Of a DNA stretch of 64,000 nucleotides, positions 1,347 through 50,691 are shown one piece after another (within the stretch, counting starts at the first letter, position 1; every line of letters begins with the position of its first letter). The stretch covers positions 22,692,001 through 22,756,000 of the forward strand of contig OX597837.1 in NCBI GenBank assembly GCA_951406725.2, written 5' to 3'. The position numbers and the translations under genes are program-made. The notes beneath the pieces are model-generated. The model worked only from the letters and a program-made list of their open reading frames with translations. It was not told the origin of the DNA and ran no database searches. Source of the stretch: Octopus vulgaris (Eukaryota).

Positions 1347-1466
1347 CTGTTTTTCTTGTATATGAATCAGAAAATTTGAGACACTGGATTGCTTCTTTGG
1401 AAACATTTTCAAGACTGGACATACTGGAGCTTCTCGACCGAGAGAAGGAGGATCCATCATTTTTAT
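1347..1466 (-). CDS. STXBP5: Tomosyn internal coding exon (120 nt, phase 1 to 1), first constant exon after the hypervariable domain
   Basis: (D)KNDGSSFSRSRSSSMSSLENVSKEAIQCLKFSDSYTRKT, versus tomosyn KDNSFSRSRSSSVTSIDKESREAISALHFCETFTRKT. Acceptor gttacag, donor GTTGGT. Confidence 0.93.
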
Positions 1467-22875: not shown

Positions 22876-23959
22876 CTTGCAGAAGGAGAAGTGGAGATGG
22901 GGGACGGGGATTAGTGAAGTCACACAAAGCTAAATAATCATAAACAAACAAGTAGAAATCCATTCCAATGAAGAGATTTAGCAGAGAATATTCTGTTCAT
23001 GAGGACTTTCATTTTAAAAATCGTTTTTTGATTTTTCTTAACTGGTTTAGTCAGGAAGGAGGTAGAGTTTGAATTTCAACAGCTGTAAATCTTTGCTGGA
23101 GGTTGAGAAATTGTGGATAGGGACGGAATCCAGGAGAGAGTGTAAGTTTTAGGCAAAGTCCTTAGTGTAGGGACTAGAAGGAGTGAGATTATAGTGGGTT
23201 AATGAGAACAGGAGAGACAAGTGTGTTTTGTTGGCCCCTTTTACCTTATCACTCACAAGATATTCAATTAGAAAAGGAATAAAAGAAATAGATTTTTTGA
23301 TATAATCAGAGTCTGATTATATATACATACTCACACACATAGGTTTAGTAGAAGAAACAGGAAAAACAAAGCTCAATATATGTGCTGAGTGTGTGTGTGT
23401 GCATGTGTATGTATGTGTGTATATATACATACATACATTATATATATAATGTATTTATATATATATGTATGTATTATTTTTAAACAATTATGTTGTTGAC
23501 AGTGACTTTGAAGTTTTGGCCAGCTGAGCCATCATTTGCTGATGGCTTAGCAAGCTGAAACTTCGACGTCACTACCAACAACATTCTTGTTTAAGAATAA
23601 CAAATTTGTACTCTACAAAAGTATAGAGTAACCCATCAGATTAATGTAAAATTGTTTGCATTATAACTCAACATGAAAAAAAACCATTAAAATATATATA
23701 TATATACATACATGCATGTATATGTATATATATGTGTGTATATATATATACATGCACACAAATATACATGCATATATACACAAGCACACACATATATGGC
23801 CATGCAATATATTAGTGCTTATGGAATATATAAATGGTTAGAATGTTACCATTGATTTTATGCTGACCATTGTACCTAAGCAATATTGACAAGTCTGAAT
23901 ATATGAGCCAGAAGTGCATAACCACTTTTACATCTAAATGAAAGGCTGTCACATATCAA

Positions 23960-28135: not shown

Positions 28136-28280
28136 CTCCGCCGTTATTATCCTCCAATGATGCGTTGCTTTGAGCCTTCTGAATTTTGCGGCTAGCCGCC
28201 TGCGACTTTGTCCGCTTCAGTTCTGGGTGTGGATGCTGTTTCTTTTGTTTTGGGCTGGGACTGGGAGAAGCAGCTTCTAT
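28136..28280 (-). CDS. STXBP5: Alternative tomosyn exon B (145 nt), phase 0 to 1
   Basis: GC-rich island after acceptor ttaattttag, reading IEAASPSPSPKQKKQHPHPELKRTKSQAASRKIQKAQSNASLEDNNGG. It bridges exon 48088 (phase 0) to exon 1466 (phase 1) in frame. The donor G|GTGCTA is weak, so the 3' boundary is less certain. Confidence 0.75.
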
Positions 28281-30500: not shown

Positions 30501-31284
30501 CTACAAACAGTCCCTTGAATATTTCACTTCGGCTCATGTGTCTTTTGTGAGAACATTCATTTTCCTTTGTGAGATCAATTACATCAACTTTGCCAATATC
30601 ACCGAAACGTCGAGGGGGCTTATATTTACGAGTATCATGTCCTACATCAAGCAAGCTGCCTCTCACTTTAATCGATAAGGCTTTCAGACTGGAGCTCATT
30701 TTCCGTAGTATTGATGTTTCTGAATCCTTGCAATTGGCACCGGGACTAGTAATATTGGTGTCGGGAATAGATTGGGTTAAATTTACATCTGAGTAAGCTT
30801 CCCTTGATATACAATTGCGATTTTCATGAAGGTTTCGACTAGATGAACTACTACAAAATAAAGATTCATCATCTTTAGGAGAGTTCCGTTTTCTAATATT
30901 AGACTCTGATGGGGAGCGTTTTATTGGCGTCACAGCCTCACTTGGTTTAGGCAGTTTGTTTGATTTTGTTCGATGTGGTACCGTCTTCACTGGTGGCATT
31001 ACATGAAAGCTGACTGATTCTTCAGTCTGCGATTCACTCTGTTCTGTTTCTACCTCGATTATTGTCCAAGTCTCGTTGTTATCTTTTGTGCTGTCAGTTT
31101 TTTCGCAAATCGACTCACTTGATAAGTAGCTTTTGGTAGTCATCGGAGTTGGTTCAATGGCTACTTGAGGTGTTTGTGTGTGGGGGAGGTGGTGCACCAG
31201 CTGCTGCTCCTCCTCCTCCTCACCACCACAGGGAGTAGAGCCACTACTCGCAGGCCGAGGATGACTTGCCAGGGGGAGGAGGGA
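30501..31284 (-). CDS. STXBP5: Large alternative tomosyn exon A (784 nt, 261 aa, Ser/Thr/Pro/charged, probably disordered), phase 0 to 1
   Basis: Longest ORF in the window (track 30490..31197). It extends in frame up to acceptor ttttccag|TCC at 31284 and reads SLLPLASHPRPASSG...MSRSEIFKGLFV. Donor G|GTATGT, with a tandem alternative TTT|GTAGGT ending the exon at 30505. No transposon motifs. Confidence 0.78.
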
Positions 31285-31925
31285 CTGGAAAATAAGGGAG
31301 TAGTGTACAAACTAAAATGCAAATTAGGAAAAAAGAAAATTAAGATGAAAAAGGATAAAAAAAAAAAAAAAACAGACAACAAATGCATAGATTAGAAAAT
31401 TATCTAAAAATTGAAAAAACAAAGCGTTTTCATGAGAAGCTGTCAATTAGAAATATAGTCGTTCCCAAATAATAATATAACACACCTTAGGTATACTTCA
31501 TTATGATGCTGGTTCATTTACTTTAATTAATTAATTAATTGAATACAAGTGAAGTAGTTAAATGTGTGCGATGGAGACTGAAGATATAAAAGTATGATAC
31601 TGGATAAGCAGTTTGCAAACTTCAATAGGATACAGCTGGATAAATGCAGTCTTAATGAAATCCAAATGGGTCTTCTTGTTTGAGATATGAAGATTTATGG
31701 AACAACACGGGTGCAAGAAACTCTCTTTGAAACCATGTAGTTGTAGGTCTGAATATAACTGCACAGCACCTTGAGCAAGTGTCTTCTACTATAGCCTCAA
31801 GTTGATCAATGCCTTGTGGATGAAATTTGGTAGATGGTAACTATGTGGATGCCTATCATATATGTTTGTGTAAGTACGTGTGTGTATGTATGTATACATA
31901 TATATGCATATACATACAGGCATAC

Positions 31926-34558: not shown

Positions 34559-37500
34559 TATATGCACACACAGAGTTGCGTATGTACACATGTATATTCC
34601 CATTTTTGTGGGAATGGAAAAAAGACAAGGATTCATGGAAGTTAGTTCTTGGGAAGCTGGGAATATAAATAACGTTCAGAGTAGCAATACAAACTACACA
34701 GTCCAAACTGCCATTGAAGAATTGCTTAAATCTTCTATTTTCAGCAATCCTTAGAAACCTGCTATCAGCATGAGGCTGACTACCAATAAAATGCTGAGAA
34801 ATAACATCAGTTCTTAGCTGCCTTGATAAAGGGATGATGTTCTTTCAAATAATTTTTGAATAGTGATTTGGGTACTGTTATTATTAACTTGCTAACATAT
34901 AGCTAAAGGACATATTTATATAAAATAGATTTTGTTTTAGAAATAGGCATTTATATTTGATAGGCTGTTCCAGGTGTTAAAATTAGGAATCCTTTGTGAA
35001 ATATATTGTTTGGCTCCCCAAATTGAATTCTTTGATTTAATATAAAAATTGTAGTTTAGACAAATTTCAGGATACAACATTTACCCATTGCATAATTAGA
35101 GTGGAATCATATTTTAAGAAATACTGTAAAATTAAAACTATTATCATATAACATTTAACATTATACTGAACAAAGCTAAAATTGAGTTAAAGAAACATAA
35201 ATTTAACTGAAAAAATAAACATTAATTTATGAATGGTATATAATATTATGATTCCAATATCTGTTTGGATTATTATTTTTATTTAAAGAATAATATATTT
35301 AAGAAGAAATATAAACTTGAAATATGAAAATATAAAGAGATTTTGTAGAATTTAAACAAAACTTAAAGCAAAGTATATTAAATTGTAAAGAAAGATTTGA
35401 GAAAATATATGTATATTTTAAAACAATGTAAGTTTCCTAAAAGATTTCTCTAGCATTAGATAAGAATTTTTATCAATATATAAATAACATTATTTAGAGA
35501 TAAGATAATGTCAAGAATGTTTCTACAGATAGGTCATCTTGTTTTTATAGTTAGAATTATTCAATTAGAGCAAAGGTTACCAAAATATCAATAATATATT
35601 ATAATCTACATTACACTATGCAATACAGATGTGATGTTATTACCAATTGATGTTATTATTGTGTCGATATTATAAAAAGCTAATACATTTAGATAGAAAA
35701 AAAAAAAGAAAACCAACAAAATGTCGAGTAATTTAATACTTAATTTCATAAGATCAATTAATCAGATTATGCACAGACAGTTTAGAATTTTGGTAAATTT
35801 GTAATTTTGAATTTTTTGCTGGAAAAATATGAAATTTTTGTCAAAATGAAGCATCAGCAAAACTTTATCTTTATTTCTAGGTCAAGAAAATTTAGATTTA
35901 TTTGAACAGATAATCATTACTATTTTAATGGTGTTTTTTTCTTTTATAGCAGAGATTAAACTTGAGGATATCATAAGCTAAGAAATTAATTAAGTAATTT
36001 TGGAGTTTATCAAACTTTTGATTGGCAGTATCAGAGTTAACATCCTCTGGATATTAAAATTTATAAATATTAACACTCTCAGATTATATATATATATAAC
36101 TATTATAACTATATATATATAATAGGAAAAGTAGATGCTTTAAAGGGTATGACTGTTGCAATACCATTCATTGGTCAGGAAAAAAAAAGAACCTTATGCT
36201 GCCAGCAGGTTGAATTGACTTTCCTTTGTGGAATCATATCTTTGGTCTTTGCAAACAATTCTTGGACCAAATGTCAGAATCTACATTTTCTTCAGGTCAC
36301 AATATCTTTTGGTTAATATTCCCAGAACTTGTAATGGGTTTGATTTTAAATATAAACAGCTAAGTTCATGCCCAATACACATTATTACACATAAATGACA
36401 ATAGCTCTGATCAATTTTCTTAGGACTTTTTCCTTTTTTTTTTTAGCTTGAAAACAAGATAGAAATAATTATTTTTCCTTTAAATCTATTACTTTTCATT
36501 AACAAACATAAAAAATAAGTATCTTGGTATTACATAGCCTAACCTTTGATAAAAGGTCAATAGAACACATAACAATGAAGGTTACTAGGAAAATGGAAGA
36601 AAAAAAAATCACAAAGGATCAAGACATAACTGAAAAGTAATTTACAAAATGCCAACTATTCTGACCAAATACTTCACTGGCAACAAAGAAAGAAAAAAAA
36701 AATAAATAAAAAATTACCATAATAAAGTATAAAATTAGCAAAGTAACAATGCTCAGAAAATTTGTAAAAGTAAATATTTAAGAAACATTTGTCGCTGGTT
36801 TCAAAAGAAAGATAAAATTCTAGAAATCATAAAATTCTAATGTGTATTGACATTCTGCATAATTCTGAAAGTTAATATCTTTGAATATCTTCTCAAATTA
36901 ATTGTCTAATTACAAAATGAAAGGATTGAGAAGTTCAATAATTTATTTTTGTAAGGATGTGTTTCCTTTAGGTTTAGAGAAAAAAATGATTAGATCTTCA
37001 AAGTAATTAAAATAAAATTACAAAATAATTAGGCAATTATTTATTGATTCAAACCCAAATTATCATATTCTTTGATATTTATATAATTTTTTAAATAATG
37101 TTTTCCAGCAAACCTCCACTCCACCAAATGTAAAGACATTCCTTTCTCAGAAGCAAATGTCTTGAAAAAATGTTTATAAATTGATAAGGAAATTCTATTA
37201 CTGATGCTTTTTTGAAATATTTGTTTCATAAAAACTTTGATAAGTTTTAATAACATTTATTTCTAAATGTTTACCTGCTTTGAAATTTGAGAAATTTGAT
37301 TAAACTATCTGTAGAAACTCTTAATTACATTATCTCAAGTAGAACTATGTTAAATCTTCCTTAAAGTTAACAATGAAATAATTTTTGGTATTTGCCTGAT
37401 TTTCATTGTTCTATGTAGTATATTATACTCAGTCTCTGCTATATAAAATATGTCATTTTGACAAATACTTTTAGGTCCTTCATCTTGATGTTAGCCACTT

Positions 37501-37605
37501 CACAGGTGCACCAATTTGCAATGTTCAATACCCAGACAATTGTTGACACTTGCCAAGCACCAGGTAACAGTGGATCAGGTTAACGACACCTTGTACAGTT
37601 GTTAC

Positions 37606-37655
37606 CTGGTACATGGCAATGGCTGTGGTATTAAAAGTACATTGCAAATTGGAGT
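37606..37655 (-). CDS. Candidate tomosyn microexon X (50 nt)
   Basis: Long polypyrimidine tract, acceptor catctag, donor CAG|GTAACA. Open in phase 0 (TPICNVLLIPQPLPCT, ending phase 2) and in phase 1 (SNLQCTFNTTAIAMYQ). Forms the 5' arm of a long hairpin. Confidence 0.45.
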
Positions 37656-37729
37656 CTAGATGAGGGGAAAGGGAGACGGAGGGGAGATGGATAAATGGAT
37701 AAGGAGAGAGAGAAAGAGATAGAGGGGTG

Positions 37730-37788
<59 letters not shown>

Positions 37789-37936
37789 GGAGGGATAGAG
37801 AGATAGAGAGAAATTTCCATTACTAACATTGAGATGTAGGACCACTGGAATTTCAAAGTAAGAAATTTAGTTGTAACTGATGTGTTTGTTAGAGAACAAA
37901 AGTTAGTTGATACCACCGGAAGAACAATGAAAACCA

Positions 37937-42001: not shown

Positions 42002-42305
42002 ATTTTTGAATAGTGATTTGGGTACTGTTATTATTAACTTGCTAACATATAGCTAAAGGACATATTTATATAAAATAGATTTTGTTTTAGAAATAGGCAT
42101 TTATATTTGATAGACTGTTCCAGGTGTTAAAATTAGGAATCCTTTGTGAAATATATTGTTTGGCTCCCCAAATTGAATTCTTTGATTTAATATAAAAATT
42201 GTAGTTTAGACAAATTTCAGGATACAACATTTACCCATTGCATAATTAGAGTGGAATCATATTTTAAGAAATACTGTAAAATTAAAACTATTATCATATA
42301 ACATT
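42002..42305 (+). repeat. 304-bp near-identical copy of 34852-35155
   Basis: Line-by-line identity at an offset of 7150, with one mismatch seen (34964 G versus 42114 A). Confidence 0.93.
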
Positions 42306-45300
42306 CAGAGAGCTGAAAACAATTAATTTGCATACTATAAGTGTTTCACCCTTTATTTAATATCCTGAGTGACGAAAGCTGGTATGGTATGGAATTTTAG
42401 CAGTTTTCTTTTTTTTATTCTACAGTGTATAAGCTTTCCTCAGTTTATATTTACGTAGTGATTTAGGTAAATCACCAAACAGAACAACATTAAAACATTG
42501 TCTTGCAAACATTACAGGGAAAGTGAGATGAATTTTTGTTGGCAGACAACGTTAATATAATCTAGAATTGTTTTAAGTTGTGAAACTGATGGTGCAGACA
42601 ATATTAATATAATCTAGAATTGTTTTAAGTTGTGAAACTGATGGTACAATTGACAATATCAGTAATATATATGTTTATATTACCTCTCTAAGTTGATATT
42701 TTAATTATCTAGCTCATAACTTGTAAGAATATACCTAACTATATTCTGAAATAGACTGAATTGAAATTGACCAGATGATAGTTGAATTGAGTAAAATGAA
42801 ATACTAAGAAATGGTTCTTCAAGAAAATTATATGAGATCAATAAGTTTTCTGATTTATGATGGTTAAATTGAGAGAGAGAGAGAGAGGGTGGGGAGAGAC
42901 ACAGATCAATTTAATTTGTGAAAGAATTCTGCGGATTACTTTGATCATTAAAATATATCTCAACAATGTGATCATATATACAGAATAATCTGATGAAAAA
43001 AGCAAACAGACAATAGATTAATGGTAACATGAATTAAGAAAATAAATATTTCCTCAAACTGCAGCCAGTCTTAGAGATTATTAGATAAATTATTATTATT
43101 AACTGATGAGTAATTTCAACTTAACATTGATCATATAAATTGTGGAAGTGAAATGGTAGAGTCCGAGGAAACTAGCGATGGTGGTCAGTGTCAGAAGTTA
43201 GTAAATAAATATAAAATGTTCACTAAGTGGAATGAATTACTTTGTCATGAGGAAAATGAATTTTCATCAACGGGTTTCTGCCTGAGATGTTATGTTTCTC
43301 AAAAACTTTGTTTAAATAACTTTTGGAAATATATGGGTGAAGGCATAACTATGTGGTTAAGAAATTCACTTTACAAATGTGGTTCTGAGTTTGACCACAT
43401 TTCTAGACACATTAGGCAATAATAATCCTCTCTACTAAAGGCGCAAGACCTGAAATTTTGTGAGGAGGGGACTAATCAATTACATCTATCCCAGTGTTCC
43501 ACTGGTACTTCATTTAAAGAGCCTGAAAAGATGAAAGGCAAAGTCAACCTAAGCAGAATTTGAACTTAAAATGTAAAGACTAAAAAAATGCCACTAAACA
43601 TTTTGCCCAGTGTGTTAAAAATTCTGCCAACTCGTCATCTTAATAGTAATAATAATAATAAATAATAATAATAATAATAATAATGTTTCATCCCCCAAAG
43701 CTGCTCTATTGAGGACAACTAGGATTTTAAGATTGAGACTTGGGTGTTGAGTATCTTCCATGATACTTACCACCTAAGTACCAAGTTTTATAATTCGTGG
43801 AAAGAAACCCCATGAAACCTTTGGCAACAGGATGCAGTCTGCGCTCACAGAATTATCCAGAACAAGTAAGATCAGGAGCTCTAGGAAGTAAAATTTAGTA
43901 GTAGTAGTAGTAGTAATAATAATACTAATGTTTTACTAGTAATAGCAGTATTAGTTTTATTTATATATCAGTTTTGAAAAATGGTAGAAAATATGTCTGT
44001 CGAATGAATGTTTGTGAGTTTCAACTGAATTAAATGTAGAATTGTTTTTGTTTAATCGAATCATACAAGATTTTGTTGGTAAATTTGTAAATTACATTTC
44101 CATAGAATAATGTTTCTTCCAGCAGAACACATGCTGGTAACATCTTTTTCGATGTTGCATCCACCATATTCTGGCAGATAGAGAAACAAAACCAACAAAC
44201 AAAGCAATTTATATGTTGCATGTTCTTTAAAGTTTATACAACAAAGAATAAATGGAAAAAAAAAAAAAATTTTGGAAACATCTTATGTTTTTTTTAACAG
44301 AAATGATTGACATCTCTCATTTCTTCATATTCAAGCAGATAAAAATTTACTGCTTTTACAAAACCTAACTACAGCTAAAAGAAAACTTGGAACTTAACAC
44401 ATGTTATTGCCAGGAAATTCTTGCCCTCTATTTTTGCATCCTTGTTTTTAAAAAAAATCTACACCAGATTCCTCTGTTCATTGGTGTTTATATTTTGAAG
44501 GCAGAATCAGTGAATGCAGCTGGTGAGGTTGATAATATATTGAAACATCCAAATTAAGATCTTGGGGAAATTACATTTTTTTTTATCAGCACTTTAAAAG
44601 TAATGATGGATGTCCAATTAGTTTGTGATCAATAATGAGTTTAAATAAAATTTAAACTAGTTTTTTTTTTTAGATGAAAAAGTTATTTTTCTTCTTATTG
44701 AAATTATCAACTTCTTATTGTTTTTCTTCTAAAATCTTAATTATTTCAGTTTCTCAGCAGTTAAAAAACTGTTATCAGTTCTCCAGTTAGTGAAGTGTAT
44801 GAGTTCAATTTCTTGCTGAGCCTTTTCCCCTTGAATACACCTTATACTATGGTAATACTTACTTATAACTTTCTTTCAATAATTGAAAATAACTTAAAGA
44901 GTTATTATTCTAATCCAAACAGAAGAGAAATGCATAAACTGTATAGTTATGCTTGGCTCAAGAATCACACTGTCACATTCCATTTTAGTTATTTTATCAT
45001 TACTCTGCCAACTTACCACCAGAGTTGGCAGAATAATGATAAAATAACTAAAATGGGATGTGATAGTGTGATTCTTGTTGTGTTCAACTTACCACCAGAG
45101 TTGGCAGAACTGTTGGCAAGTCAGGCAAATTGCTTAGTTACATTTCTCCTGTCTTTACATTCTGAGTTCAAATTCTGCTGAGGGTGACTTTGCCTTTCAT
45201 ACTTTTGGGGGCCAATAAAATAAGTACCAGTTGAGCACTGGGGAGTCAATGTAATTTTAAACCATTATTACTCTGGGGTAATTGTATTTATTGAGGTGAG

Positions 45301-48087: not shown

Positions 48088-48209
48088 TTGGTCACTGGTT
48101 GGAGATTTGCATTCATCAGTAAATATTTGTCCAGTATTATTAGCATCAAGAGGTTGTGGTCTTTTTCCACGGGGAGAACGAGGTGCTCGCTGGTATGGAT
48201 CCATAGATC
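48088..48209 (-). CDS. STXBP5: Tomosyn internal coding exon (122 nt, phase 1 to 0), last constant exon before the hypervariable domain
   Basis: Hand translation (too short for the ORF track): (G)SMDPYQRAPRSPRGKRPQPLDANNTGQIFTDECKSPTSDQ, versus tomosyn GSNDPYRREPRSPRK...EDRCKSPTS. Acceptor ttccag, donor GTAAAT. Confidence 0.92.
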
Positions 48210-49354: not shown

Positions 49355-49955
49355 TTAGTAACAGAGGCAGTATTAATATTGCAAAGTAATATTTATCTCC
49401 ACTTAAACATGAATGTATTGTTGGAACAAATTATACTGTGGTAGATGTCATGAGAGAAACTCTCATATTGGCTTTTGGTGTAAAATGCACCCTTGTTGAT
49501 ATCACTAGTAGAGAAAAAAATCTCCACCGTCTCCAACACTGAGCCCATCAGCTCACATAATTTTGACATTCCTTAGTCTTGTCAATGATGAACACTCAAC
49601 TGCTAGAGATAGCAGCAACTCATCTCCCAACTAGTGATATATAGCAAAACAGTGCCAGAACAGGCACTGATGTTGCGATTAACCAGTGAGCTTGTTAAAA
49701 AATATATATTAGCAATAGAGGCAATATTAATACTGAAAGGTAATATTTATCCCCACTTAAACCTGAATGTTCTGTTAGAACAAACTATACTGTGGTGGAT
49801 ACCATGAGAGAAACTCTCGTACTGGCTTTTGGAGTGATGGAAACAAGAGTGCATTTTGCACCAAAAGCCAGTATGAGAGTTTCTCTCATGGTGTCTACTG
49901 CAGTATACTTTGTTCTAACAGAACATCTAGGTTTACGTGGGGATAAATATTACCT
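49355..49955. repeat. Triplicated 120-150 bp unit: two direct copies and one inverted copy
   Basis: 49355-49507 resembles 49707-49832; 49833-49955 is their reverse complement. Confidence 0.9.
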
Positions 49956-50602
49956 ATGAGGACAATGAACAGTGCTCTAAATCTCACAGTAATCGCCTGC
50001 ATAGACTGCAAGAAGCAGATAGAGTAAAATGTCTTGCTGAAAGGCACAAACTAGAGGCTGTCAGTGAAATAGGAAATCAACAGAATAAGTGCCTAACATT
50101 TATAACATGAATTTATATGACAGCAGCGAATTGATTTATTTAGCAATCAGCACAGTGAAGGCGCATGGCTTAGTGGTTAGCGTATTCAGCTCATGGTTCT
50201 AAGGTCATCAGTTCAATTCACAGTGATTCATTGAGTCCATGGGCACCTTGATGATTTGCATTGGGTATCTTCAATATGTTATCTCAGATTAAATCCTTTT
50301 GTGCTGAAATACAAACTGGCACTCTGCATTGGTTATGATGATGAGGGTTCCAGTTGATCCAATCGATGCATCAGCCTGCTCATGGAATTAACGTGCATGT
50401 GCATGTACTCCACAGGCACGTGCACCTGTCATGTAGATCTAATTGAGTCAATGCAATTTCAAATTACTTGATTAATTCTAATCAAAATTTAATGTGGTTT
50501 TGTTCATTTAATAAGGACTTTATTTGAAAGTAGGCAGTATTTGGAAGAACTGTAGGATGGGTGTCTTAGGTAATGCAATAATATACAAGTAAGAATATTC
50601 AC

Positions 50603-50691
50603 CATACAAATCAGGTGTCCCAATATTAAGCAAACAAATTTTCTGGATTATGTCCACTACAGCTAGACCAGATTCATTGCCAAAAGCCATT
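50603..50691 (-). CDS. STXBP5: Tomosyn internal coding exon (89 nt, phase 2 to 1)
   Basis: Translates MAFGNESGLAVVDIIQKICLLNIGTPDLY(G), matching tomosyn VFGNCNGIAMVDYLQKAVLLNLGTIELYG. Acceptor tttcag, donor GTGAAT; phases join both neighbouring exons. Confidence 0.93.

What the first reader, a model, noticed from the sequence alone, without database searches (positions are those of the whole stretch)
37511..37655. 142-nt exon-intron hairpin that swallows candidate microexon X and its donor
Seen on minus: CCAATTTGCAATGT/ACATTGCAAATTGG (14 bp perfect), TTAATACC/GGTATTGA, TTGCCA/TGGCAA and GTACCAGGTAACA/TGTTACCTGGTGC. Both wobbles are G-U only on the transcribed strand. The 5' arm starts 3 nt after a strong acceptor and includes the CAG|GTAACA donor. 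No TSD or second copy is visible. Known: exon/ECS duplexes like this direct ADAR recoding and compete with U1 binding. Alternative: a lineage-specific intronic pre-miRNA.
Basis: partly seen in the sequence, partly recalled or inferred. Interest (0 to 1): 0.72.

Follow-up and report, generated by a model that had tools for sequence, protein, structure and literature searches.

The report
Intronic hairpin over silent tomosyn pseudo-exon
An intron of the octopus tomosyn gene, which restrains neurotransmitter release, holds a one-off fold-back that is predicted to bury an exon-like stretch and is likely an ordinary, lightly edited RNA hairpin, because that stretch was never seen spliced into a transcript.

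Summary
The hairpin is real: 47 predicted pairs, z -7.5, single copy in a 2.8-Gb genome. It lies in the intron of tomosyn/STXBP5 before the two alternative hypervariable-loop exons. 'Microexon X' (37655-37606) has good splice-site motifs but is 50 nt. After exon B it frameshifts to a stop; it is in frame only if it replaces B. X appears in 0 of 67 proteins retrieved (51 span the exon A end). No junction was seen in the RNA contigs covering it, and the main spliced contig of one run skips it. One low-depth RNA contig reads A>G at 37607 (donor -2, the GluA2 R/G position), where a DNA run reads A; 3 other covering runs do not show it. A second species keeps the fold but shows no compensatory pair, two broken pairs and no more conservation than the flank. 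MITE origin is not supported, and the shape fits a pre-miRNA poorly. Best reading: a lineage-restricted intronic fold-back, likely lightly ADAR-edited, over a silent pseudo-exon (0.55). An editing-gated poison or alternative exon remains open (0.25).

The parts
37509..37654 (-). Fold-back hairpin, 47 predicted main-stem pairs; bulges of 4 nt and 1 nt on the 5' side and 11 nt on the 3' side
37596..37654 (-). 5' arm (candidate exon X plus first 10 intron bases)
37509..37572 (-). 3' arm (ECS-like intronic complement)
   Evidence: differences in a second species at 37545, 37554, 37568
37573..37595 (-). Apical loop with a 4-bp mini-helix
   Evidence: second species differs at 37578 and 37579
37606..37655 (-). 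Candidate exon X, 50 nt, AG|...CAG|GTAACA; not seen spliced; PTC after exon B, in frame if it replaces exon B
   Evidence: no inclusion
37607..37607 (-). A at donor -2; read as G in one RNA-guess contig (candidate A-to-I site)
   Evidence: X9 depth 3.26 of 7.36; A in DNA run X3 and in X2, X4, X20
37533..37533 (-). Genomic G/A polymorphism in the stem (C-G to C.A)
   Evidence: DNA run X3 has A; X9 has A; X4 mixed; X2 has G
37656..37800 (-). (CT)n/(TA)n simple repeats and pyrimidine tract that supply the strong acceptor score
   Evidence: read from the sequence; acceptor score 14.2
50603..50691 (-). Tomosyn/STXBP5 exon A (89 nt, ends in phase 1)
48088..48209 (-). Tomosyn exon B (122 nt, phase 1 to 0), last exon before the hairpin
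   Evidence: 100% identical over 40 aa to Octopus STXBP5 proteins
30501..31284 (-). Long hypervariable-loop exon (784 nt, phase 0 to 1; alternative acceptor at 31311)
28136..28280 (-). Short hypervariable-loop exon (145 nt, phase 0 to 1), alternative to the long one
1347..1466 (-). Next common tomosyn exon (start 1466 shown; end 1347 is a predicted donor)

Best explanation
This is a single-copy fold-back in the tomosyn/STXBP5 intron, likely made by a local inverted duplication, that is predicted to pair over a silent exon-like stretch and is likely edited only lightly by ADAR. Shown: the sequence, its single-copy status, the host gene and exon phases, and unspliced RNA-type contigs across it. 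Predicted: a 47-bp duplex that buries the CAG|GTAACA donor-like site (unpaired probability 0.00 from -3 to +5). Inferred: ADAR edits some stem adenosines, including A37607, in the nascent RNA; the structure and that edit both disfavour U1 binding; X is skipped and the intron leaves with the hairpin, so the protein is not recoded. Keeping a would-be poison exon silent may be a side benefit, but no selection for it was detected.
For: Single copy, while the same search finds 1691 and 2772 candidates for two palindromic repeat families in this gene. A second single-copy, near-perfect fold-back, 44955-45085, lies in the same intron and also overlaps an AG...GTAAGT candidate, so such structures arise locally. 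No X peptide in 0 of 67 proteins; 49 of 51 that span the exon A end go straight into exon B and 2 bivalve proteins have another insert. In run X2 the depth at 37607 (9.48) equals the unspliced contig alone, so the 1704-nt contig of depth 32.1, which runs 354 nt beyond the long exon's acceptor, does not contain X. No joint and no loose end at X borders in X9, X19, X20. Exon-like AG..GT pairs of this quality occur by chance: 9 sense versus 6 antisense in 64 kb at acceptor >=13 and donor >=3.4. Second species: 6 differences in 143 nt versus 7 substitutions plus 2 indels in 192 nt of flank (p=0.78), two C-G to C.A breaks, no compensatory pair, fold weakened to -51.9. A stem pair is polymorphic in the host species (37533). 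Most O. vulgaris editing lies in introns and 3'UTRs and very rarely alters splice sites (PMC9699675, passages).
Against: X has the joint-best crude acceptor score (14.2 versus 11.9-13.8 for five real acceptors) and a better donor (3.5) than exons A and B (2.2, 2.5); at the strictest cut only 4 sense and 1 antisense candidates exist. The arm starts within 3 nt of the AG. The one A>G seen falls exactly on donor -2. X has the same phase as exon B and gives an open frame in its place. X has only 1 difference in 50 nt in the second species, and paired positions differ less than the rest (2 of 93 versus 4 of 50, p=0.18). Contigs drop rare variants and an NMD-targeted exon would be depleted, so missing junctions are weak evidence. 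The editing step rests on one contig of depth 3.26, which may be an error or an allele.
Confidence: 0.55

Rival explanations
1. X is a real, rarely included exon gated by the hairpin and by ADAR at donor -2, as at the GluA2 R/G site. After exon B it would be a poison exon that lowers tomosyn by NMD. In place of exon B it would give an in-frame loop variant whose last codon is recoded Gln to Arg.
For: Splice-site scores match real exons of the gene. A>G at 37607 in RNA-type run X9, A in DNA run X3. The edit lowers the crude donor score from 3.5 to 1.2. Phase 1 to 0 equals exon B and gives an open frame; PTC after B. It sits just before an alternative exon pair, like GluA2 exon 13 (PMC1920255, passages). 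No donor or acceptor change is listed for the second species (2 unlisted differences lie near that contig's ends).
Against: No junction, loose end or protein with X. No covariation; two stem pairs broken in the second species and one polymorphic. The donor is predicted fully paired, and the edit makes a G-U pair that changes the energy by only 0.7 kcal/mol, so it would not open the stem. Replacing B would delete a segment kept from Octopus to bivalves and abalone.
Confidence: 0.25
2. The upper stem (37621-37548) is an Octopus-specific intronic pre-miRNA whose 5p arm is the mature strand.
For: About 20 bp of upper stem and a 30-nt apical region. The 5p 22-mer is unchanged in the second species while loop and 3p arm vary. 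Coleoids gained many novel miRNAs (PMC9699675, abstract).
Against: An 11-nt asymmetric bulge sits where the basal Drosha stem should start, and the full stem is 47 bp rather than about 35 (the 35-bp norm is recalled). Position 2 of the 3p arm differs in the second species. No Rfam family at gathering score; best 18.8 bits versus cut-off 65. Arm motifs were not found in the supplements that could be read, which hold no miRNA sequence list that I could see.
Confidence: 0.08
3. It is a decayed MITE or fold-back transposon whose family is too old or too small to detect.
For: Terminal 14-bp inverted repeat; palindromic repeat families are common in this gene's introns.
Against: 1 candidate in the DNA search; 1 locus for the inner stem pattern; 1 match for a 22-mer at up to 2 mismatches. 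The 14-mer has 26 genome matches, of which only the two here face each other closely. No target-site duplication is visible. The search did find families at about 80% identity.
Confidence: 0.07
4. The hairpin is a neutral duplication that is not edited at all; 37607 G is a rare allele or an error.
For: Seen in 1 of 4 RNA-type runs that cover the base, in one contig under depth 5; the same contig carries the proven SNP allele at 37533. No DNA of the same individual was available.
Against: The change is A>G on the transcribed strand inside a 12-bp helix with a 3' G. X9 is RNA-like: listed pieces cover at least 30% of this 9.5-kb stretch against 1.5% expected if its contigs were spread over the genome.
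Confidence: 0.05

Closest known systems
GluA2/GRIA2 R/G site hairpin (exon 13-intron 13)
   Same: Local exon-intron duplex covering the donor; candidate edited A two nucleotides before the 5' splice site; alternative exon pair downstream. In GluA2, inosine there lowers splicing efficiency (PMC1920255, passages).
   Different: GluA2 exon 13 is a spliced coding exon with proven editing and, as recalled, a deeply conserved stem. X is not seen spliced, is out of frame after its upstream exon, and its stem shows no covariation.
Intronic ADAR-substrate hairpins of coleoid pre-mRNAs
   Same: Intronic dsRNA in a neuronal gene; most O. vulgaris editing is in introns and 3'UTRs (PMC9699675, passages); squid has 16,738 robust intronic sites (PMC9068888, passages).
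   Different: Those sites tend to overlap repeats; this duplex is single copy and overlaps splice-site-like motifs.
Donor-sequestering stems (MAPT exon 10, SMN2 exon 7) and structure-silenced poison exons (SF3B3)
   Same: A stem hides a splice signal and would lower U1 or U2 access (review PMC11802352, passages).
   Different: Those act on exons with measured inclusion; here inclusion is unobserved and the stem is much longer.
Drosophila tomosyn mutually exclusive exons 13A/13B
   Same: Same gene; a conserved and a poorly conserved alternative exon encode a loop projecting from the WD40 scaffold (PMC8612732, passages); the window's short and long exons look like the molluscan counterpart (orthology not tested).
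   Different: No hairpin or third exon is described in the passages read; X cannot fill that slot, which needs 3n+1 nt.

Membership tests
Exon/ECS ADAR recoding site (GluA2 R/G type) | Duplex between the edited stretch and a downstream intronic complement | tested here: met
   Predicted fold, z -7.49; pair 37607/37562 probability 1.0 in context; prediction only
Exon/ECS ADAR recoding site (GluA2 R/G type) | The edited base lies in a spliced coding exon | tested here: not met
   0 of 67 proteins; no junction in covering contigs; X2 main spliced contig skips X. Rare inclusion not excluded.
Exon/ECS ADAR recoding site (GluA2 R/G type) | A in DNA, G in RNA of the same individual | tested here: inconclusive
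   G in one contig of X9 (3.26 of 7.36), A in DNA run X3 of another sample, A in X2, X4, X20
Exon/ECS ADAR recoding site (GluA2 R/G type) | Conserved stem with compensatory changes | tested here: not met
   One other species only: 0 compensatory pairs, 2 breaks, conservation equal to flank; low power
Poison exon (AS-NMD) | Inclusion creates a premature stop upstream of later junctions | tested here: met
   After exon B, stop at the first codon inside the short exon or about 40 codons into the long exon
Poison exon (AS-NMD) | Measurable inclusion, rising on NMD inhibition | not testable with these tools
   Only contigs were available; none shows a junction
Canonical pre-miRNA (MirGeneDB-type criteria, recalled) | At least 16 paired bases between two 20-26-nt arms, loop 8-40 nt | tested here: met
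   Upper stem about 20 bp, apical region 30 nt
Canonical pre-miRNA (MirGeneDB-type criteria, recalled) | About 11-bp basal stem continuous with the duplex, total about 35 bp | tested here: not met
   11-nt bulge at the duplex base; total 47 bp
Canonical pre-miRNA (MirGeneDB-type criteria, recalled) | Reads from both arms with 2-nt overhangs | not testable with these tools
   No raw small-RNA run was listed; the paper's data archive could not be read
MITE | Many dispersed copies | tested here: not met
   positive controls
MITE | Terminal inverted repeats with a target-site duplication | tested here: not met
   14-bp inverted ends present, no duplication visible in the flanks (read by eye)

The most novel reading that the evidence does not exclude
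An Octopus-lineage RNA switch in tomosyn: a hairpin and an ADAR site at donor -2 gate a 50-nt exon that either destroys the mRNA (after exon B) or replaces exon B in frame with a Gln/Arg-recoded loop, letting editing set the amount and form of the main brake on synaptic vesicle release.
Probability: 0.17. Interest if true: 0.72.

Novelty: new member of a known kind. Interest (0 to 1): 0.3.

Why it matters
If the best reading holds, it is one of many intronic ADAR substrates in octopus and matters little, beyond showing how a local inverted duplication can cover a cryptic poison exon. If X is included and gated by editing, it would link cephalopod RNA editing to the level of tomosyn, a regulator of release probability (PMC8612732), through splicing rather than recoding. 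PMC9699675 reports that editing very rarely alters splice sites in octopus. The site gives an exact, cheap test: one base (37607) and two junctions.

Tried and rejected
Rfam: 0 matches at gathering score; only sub-threshold miRNA-shaped hits. Pfam: 0 families on 4 single exons. ESM Atlas on the long exon: no hit at 0.9. Protein searches with the 42-aa frame through X: 3 candidates, none at E<=10; HMMER over 1.84 billion representatives gave 3 hits, all repeat proteins with multiple weak stretches and unrelated. Metagenome scan for the inner stem: 25 loci, none with similarity beyond short chance-level stretches. No long-range partner for the arms elsewhere in the window. No RNA holder was listed on record; kinds are guesses. 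X24 and X19 do not cover X, which is no evidence either way. An 81-nt X20 contig folds back on itself at a short palindrome and was read as a library snap-back artefact; it served only to read two letters of that species. Literature: 'tomosyn' + 'RNA editing' gave 9 papers (8 listed), none on cephalopods by title or abstract; the one opened had tomosyn only in its reference list. 'cephalopod' + 'RNA editing' + 'poison exon' gave 4, none on this gene by listing. Supplements: PMC9699675 data archive unreadable and its PDF not searched; one small file of PMC9068888 and one of PMC11701709 had no hit; unseen files may list this locus. Earlier scan findings: none near, none by sequence, none by words; 8 of 599 same-genome notes shown were on other loci. 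Rejected: X as a third option for the hypervariable slot (wrong phase); 37533 as an edit (genomic allele).

Full report
Observation. The 161-nt stretch folds at -65.8 kcal/mol, z -7.49, with 0 of 200 shuffles as stable; the plus strand gives -58.9, z -4.87. The main stem has 47 pairs, two of them G-U, and five sampled pairs keep probability 0.999 or more in a 450-nt context. The AG before 37655 and the CAG|GTAACA at 37606/37605 are there. The donor-like site is predicted fully paired from -3 to +5.

Copy number. The window is G000:C24:22692001-22756000 of a 2.8-Gb genome. A DNA search returns only this locus (1 candidate), as do the inner-stem pattern and a 22-mer at up to two mismatches. The terminal 14-mer has 26 matches, of which only the two here face each other. 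As positive controls, two other fold-backs in the same gene return 1691 and 2772 candidates at about 80% identity. A third fold-back, 44955-45085, is also single copy, nearly perfect (z -17.7) and in the same intron. It too overlaps an AG...GTAAGT exon candidate. Single-copy fold-backs therefore arise in this intron, most simply by local inverted duplication (inference).

Host gene. Exon 48209-48088 is 100% identical over 40 aa to Octopus syntaxin-binding protein 5 (tomosyn). The long exon matches the O. vulgaris protein P0031 at the residues I compared by eye where other Octopus proteins differ, so the genome is probably O. vulgaris. The order is exon A (50691-50603, ends in phase 1), exon B (48209-48088, phase 1 to 0), the hairpin, a long exon (31284-30501) or a short exon (28280-28136), both phase 0 to 1, then the common exon at 1466. 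In Drosophila, mutually exclusive exons 13A/13B encode a loop of the WD40 scaffold (PMC8612732, passages); the long and short exons look like the counterpart, which I did not test.

Is X an exon? X is 50 nt. After exon B it shifts the frame and stops at the first codon inside the short exon or about 40 codons into the long one. In place of exon B it keeps the frame, reading SNLQCTFNTTAIAMYQ. Its crude splice scores equal or beat those of real exons of the gene (acceptor 14.2, donor 3.5), but the pyrimidine tract adjoins a (CT)n repeat. Candidates with acceptor >=13 and donor >=3.4 number 9 on the sense and 6 on the antisense strand of the window; at acceptor >=14 they number 4 and 1. No X peptide occurs in 0 of 67 retrieved proteins; of 51 spanning the end of exon A, 49 go directly into exon B. 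These proteins were found with exon B or exon A as query, and cluster listings were partial. Direct searches with the X frame found nothing related. Six RNA-guess runs were laid; four cover X (X2, X4, X9, X20). In X2 one contig runs unspliced from 37274 to 37692, and the depth at 37607 (9.48) equals that contig alone, so the 1704-nt contig of depth 32.1 that continues 354 nt past the long exon's acceptor does not hold X (its joint and loose-end tables were cut). One search shows no joint and no loose end at X's borders. Contigs drop rare forms and an NMD target would be depleted, so rare inclusion is not excluded.

Editing. X9 has a 135-nt unspliced contig (depth 3.26 of 7.36) reading G at 37607 on the transcribed strand. 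DNA run X3 reads A, as do X2, X4 and X20. X9 is RNA-like: its listed pieces cover 30% of the 9.5-kb stretch against 1.5% expected from its size. The base is at donor -2 inside a 12-bp helix. This is the position of the GluA2 R/G site, where inosine reduces splicing (PMC1920255, passages). The edit would lower the crude donor score from 3.5 to 1.2 and change the fold by 0.7 kcal/mol. Against: one contig under depth 5, no matched DNA, and the same contig carries the A allele at 37533, which X3 shows to be a genomic polymorphism that breaks a stem pair. A second X9 contig has one unlisted difference near its end.

Conservation. Run X20 (another organism label) covers 37512-37688 and differs at 37545, 37554, 37568, 37578, 37579 and 37638; the first two were read from a fold-back contig's loose end. 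37554 and 37568 turn C-G into C.A, and none is compensatory. The fold drops to -51.9 but still covers the donor core. The hairpin (6 of 143) is no more conserved than the flank (7 of 192 plus 2 indels; p=0.78). Paired positions differ less than the rest (2 of 93 versus 4 of 50; p=0.18), which is a trend only. RNA contigs cannot separate edits from genomic differences, for example A>G at 37638. Squid and cuttlefish DNA could not be examined.

Mechanism. Shown: a single-copy inverted repeat in a transcribed tomosyn intron. Predicted: a long duplex over a donor-like site. Inferred: light ADAR editing of the nascent RNA, skipping of X and no change to the protein (0.55). This fits reports that most O. 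vulgaris editing is intronic or in 3'UTRs and very rarely alters splice sites (PMC9699675, abstract and passages). Rivals: an editing-gated poison or B-replacing exon (0.25), an intronic pre-miRNA (0.08; 11-nt bulge at the duplex base, no Rfam family, no small-RNA reads available), a decayed MITE (0.07), and an unedited neutral duplication (0.05).

Relation to known systems. It would work like the GluA2 R/G hairpin or the donor-hiding stems of MAPT and SMN2 (PMC11802352, passages). It does not pass as an exon/ECS recoding site, because a spliced coding exon and a covarying stem were tested and not found. It is best filed as a new member of the intronic ADAR-substrate hairpins of coleoids. Searches listed no paper on this locus; supplements I could not read may list it.

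Verdict. Real structure, ordinary most likely. Interest 0.30. The most novel reading not excluded, an ADAR-gated splice switch for tomosyn, has probability about 0.17 and would deserve about 0.72.

Noticed in passing
window 44955-45085: Single-copy, near-perfect fold-back (z -17.7) with an internal direct duplication, in the same intron; overlaps an AG...GTAAGT exon candidate (45109-45017).
   Followed up: partly
window 49755-49960 and 23440-23605: Two palindromic MITE-like repeat families (2772 and 1691 first-look candidates, about 80% identity) in tomosyn introns; likely ADAR substrates.
   Followed up: partly
window 34852-35155 and 42002-42305: A 304-nt direct duplication at 99.7% identity within the same intron, 7 kb apart; recent duplication or assembly artefact.
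   Followed up: partly
window 30409-30270 (minus): Strong AG..GT exon candidate of 140 nt just after the long exon; covered unspliced in run X2 and absent from the proteins viewed.
   Followed up: no
window 58191-58027 (minus): 165-nt in-frame exon present in the O. sinensis model P0028 but absent from the O. bimaculoides and O. vulgaris models viewed.
   Followed up: no
proteins P0007-P0009, P0028: A GHSN micro-insert occurs before the common exon, either after the long exon or directly after exon B, the latter lacking both hypervariable exons; a motif search did not locate the micro-exon in the window.
   Followed up: partly
window 31284 and 31311 (minus): Tandem in-frame acceptors of the long exon; both forms appear in Octopus protein models.
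   Followed up: yes
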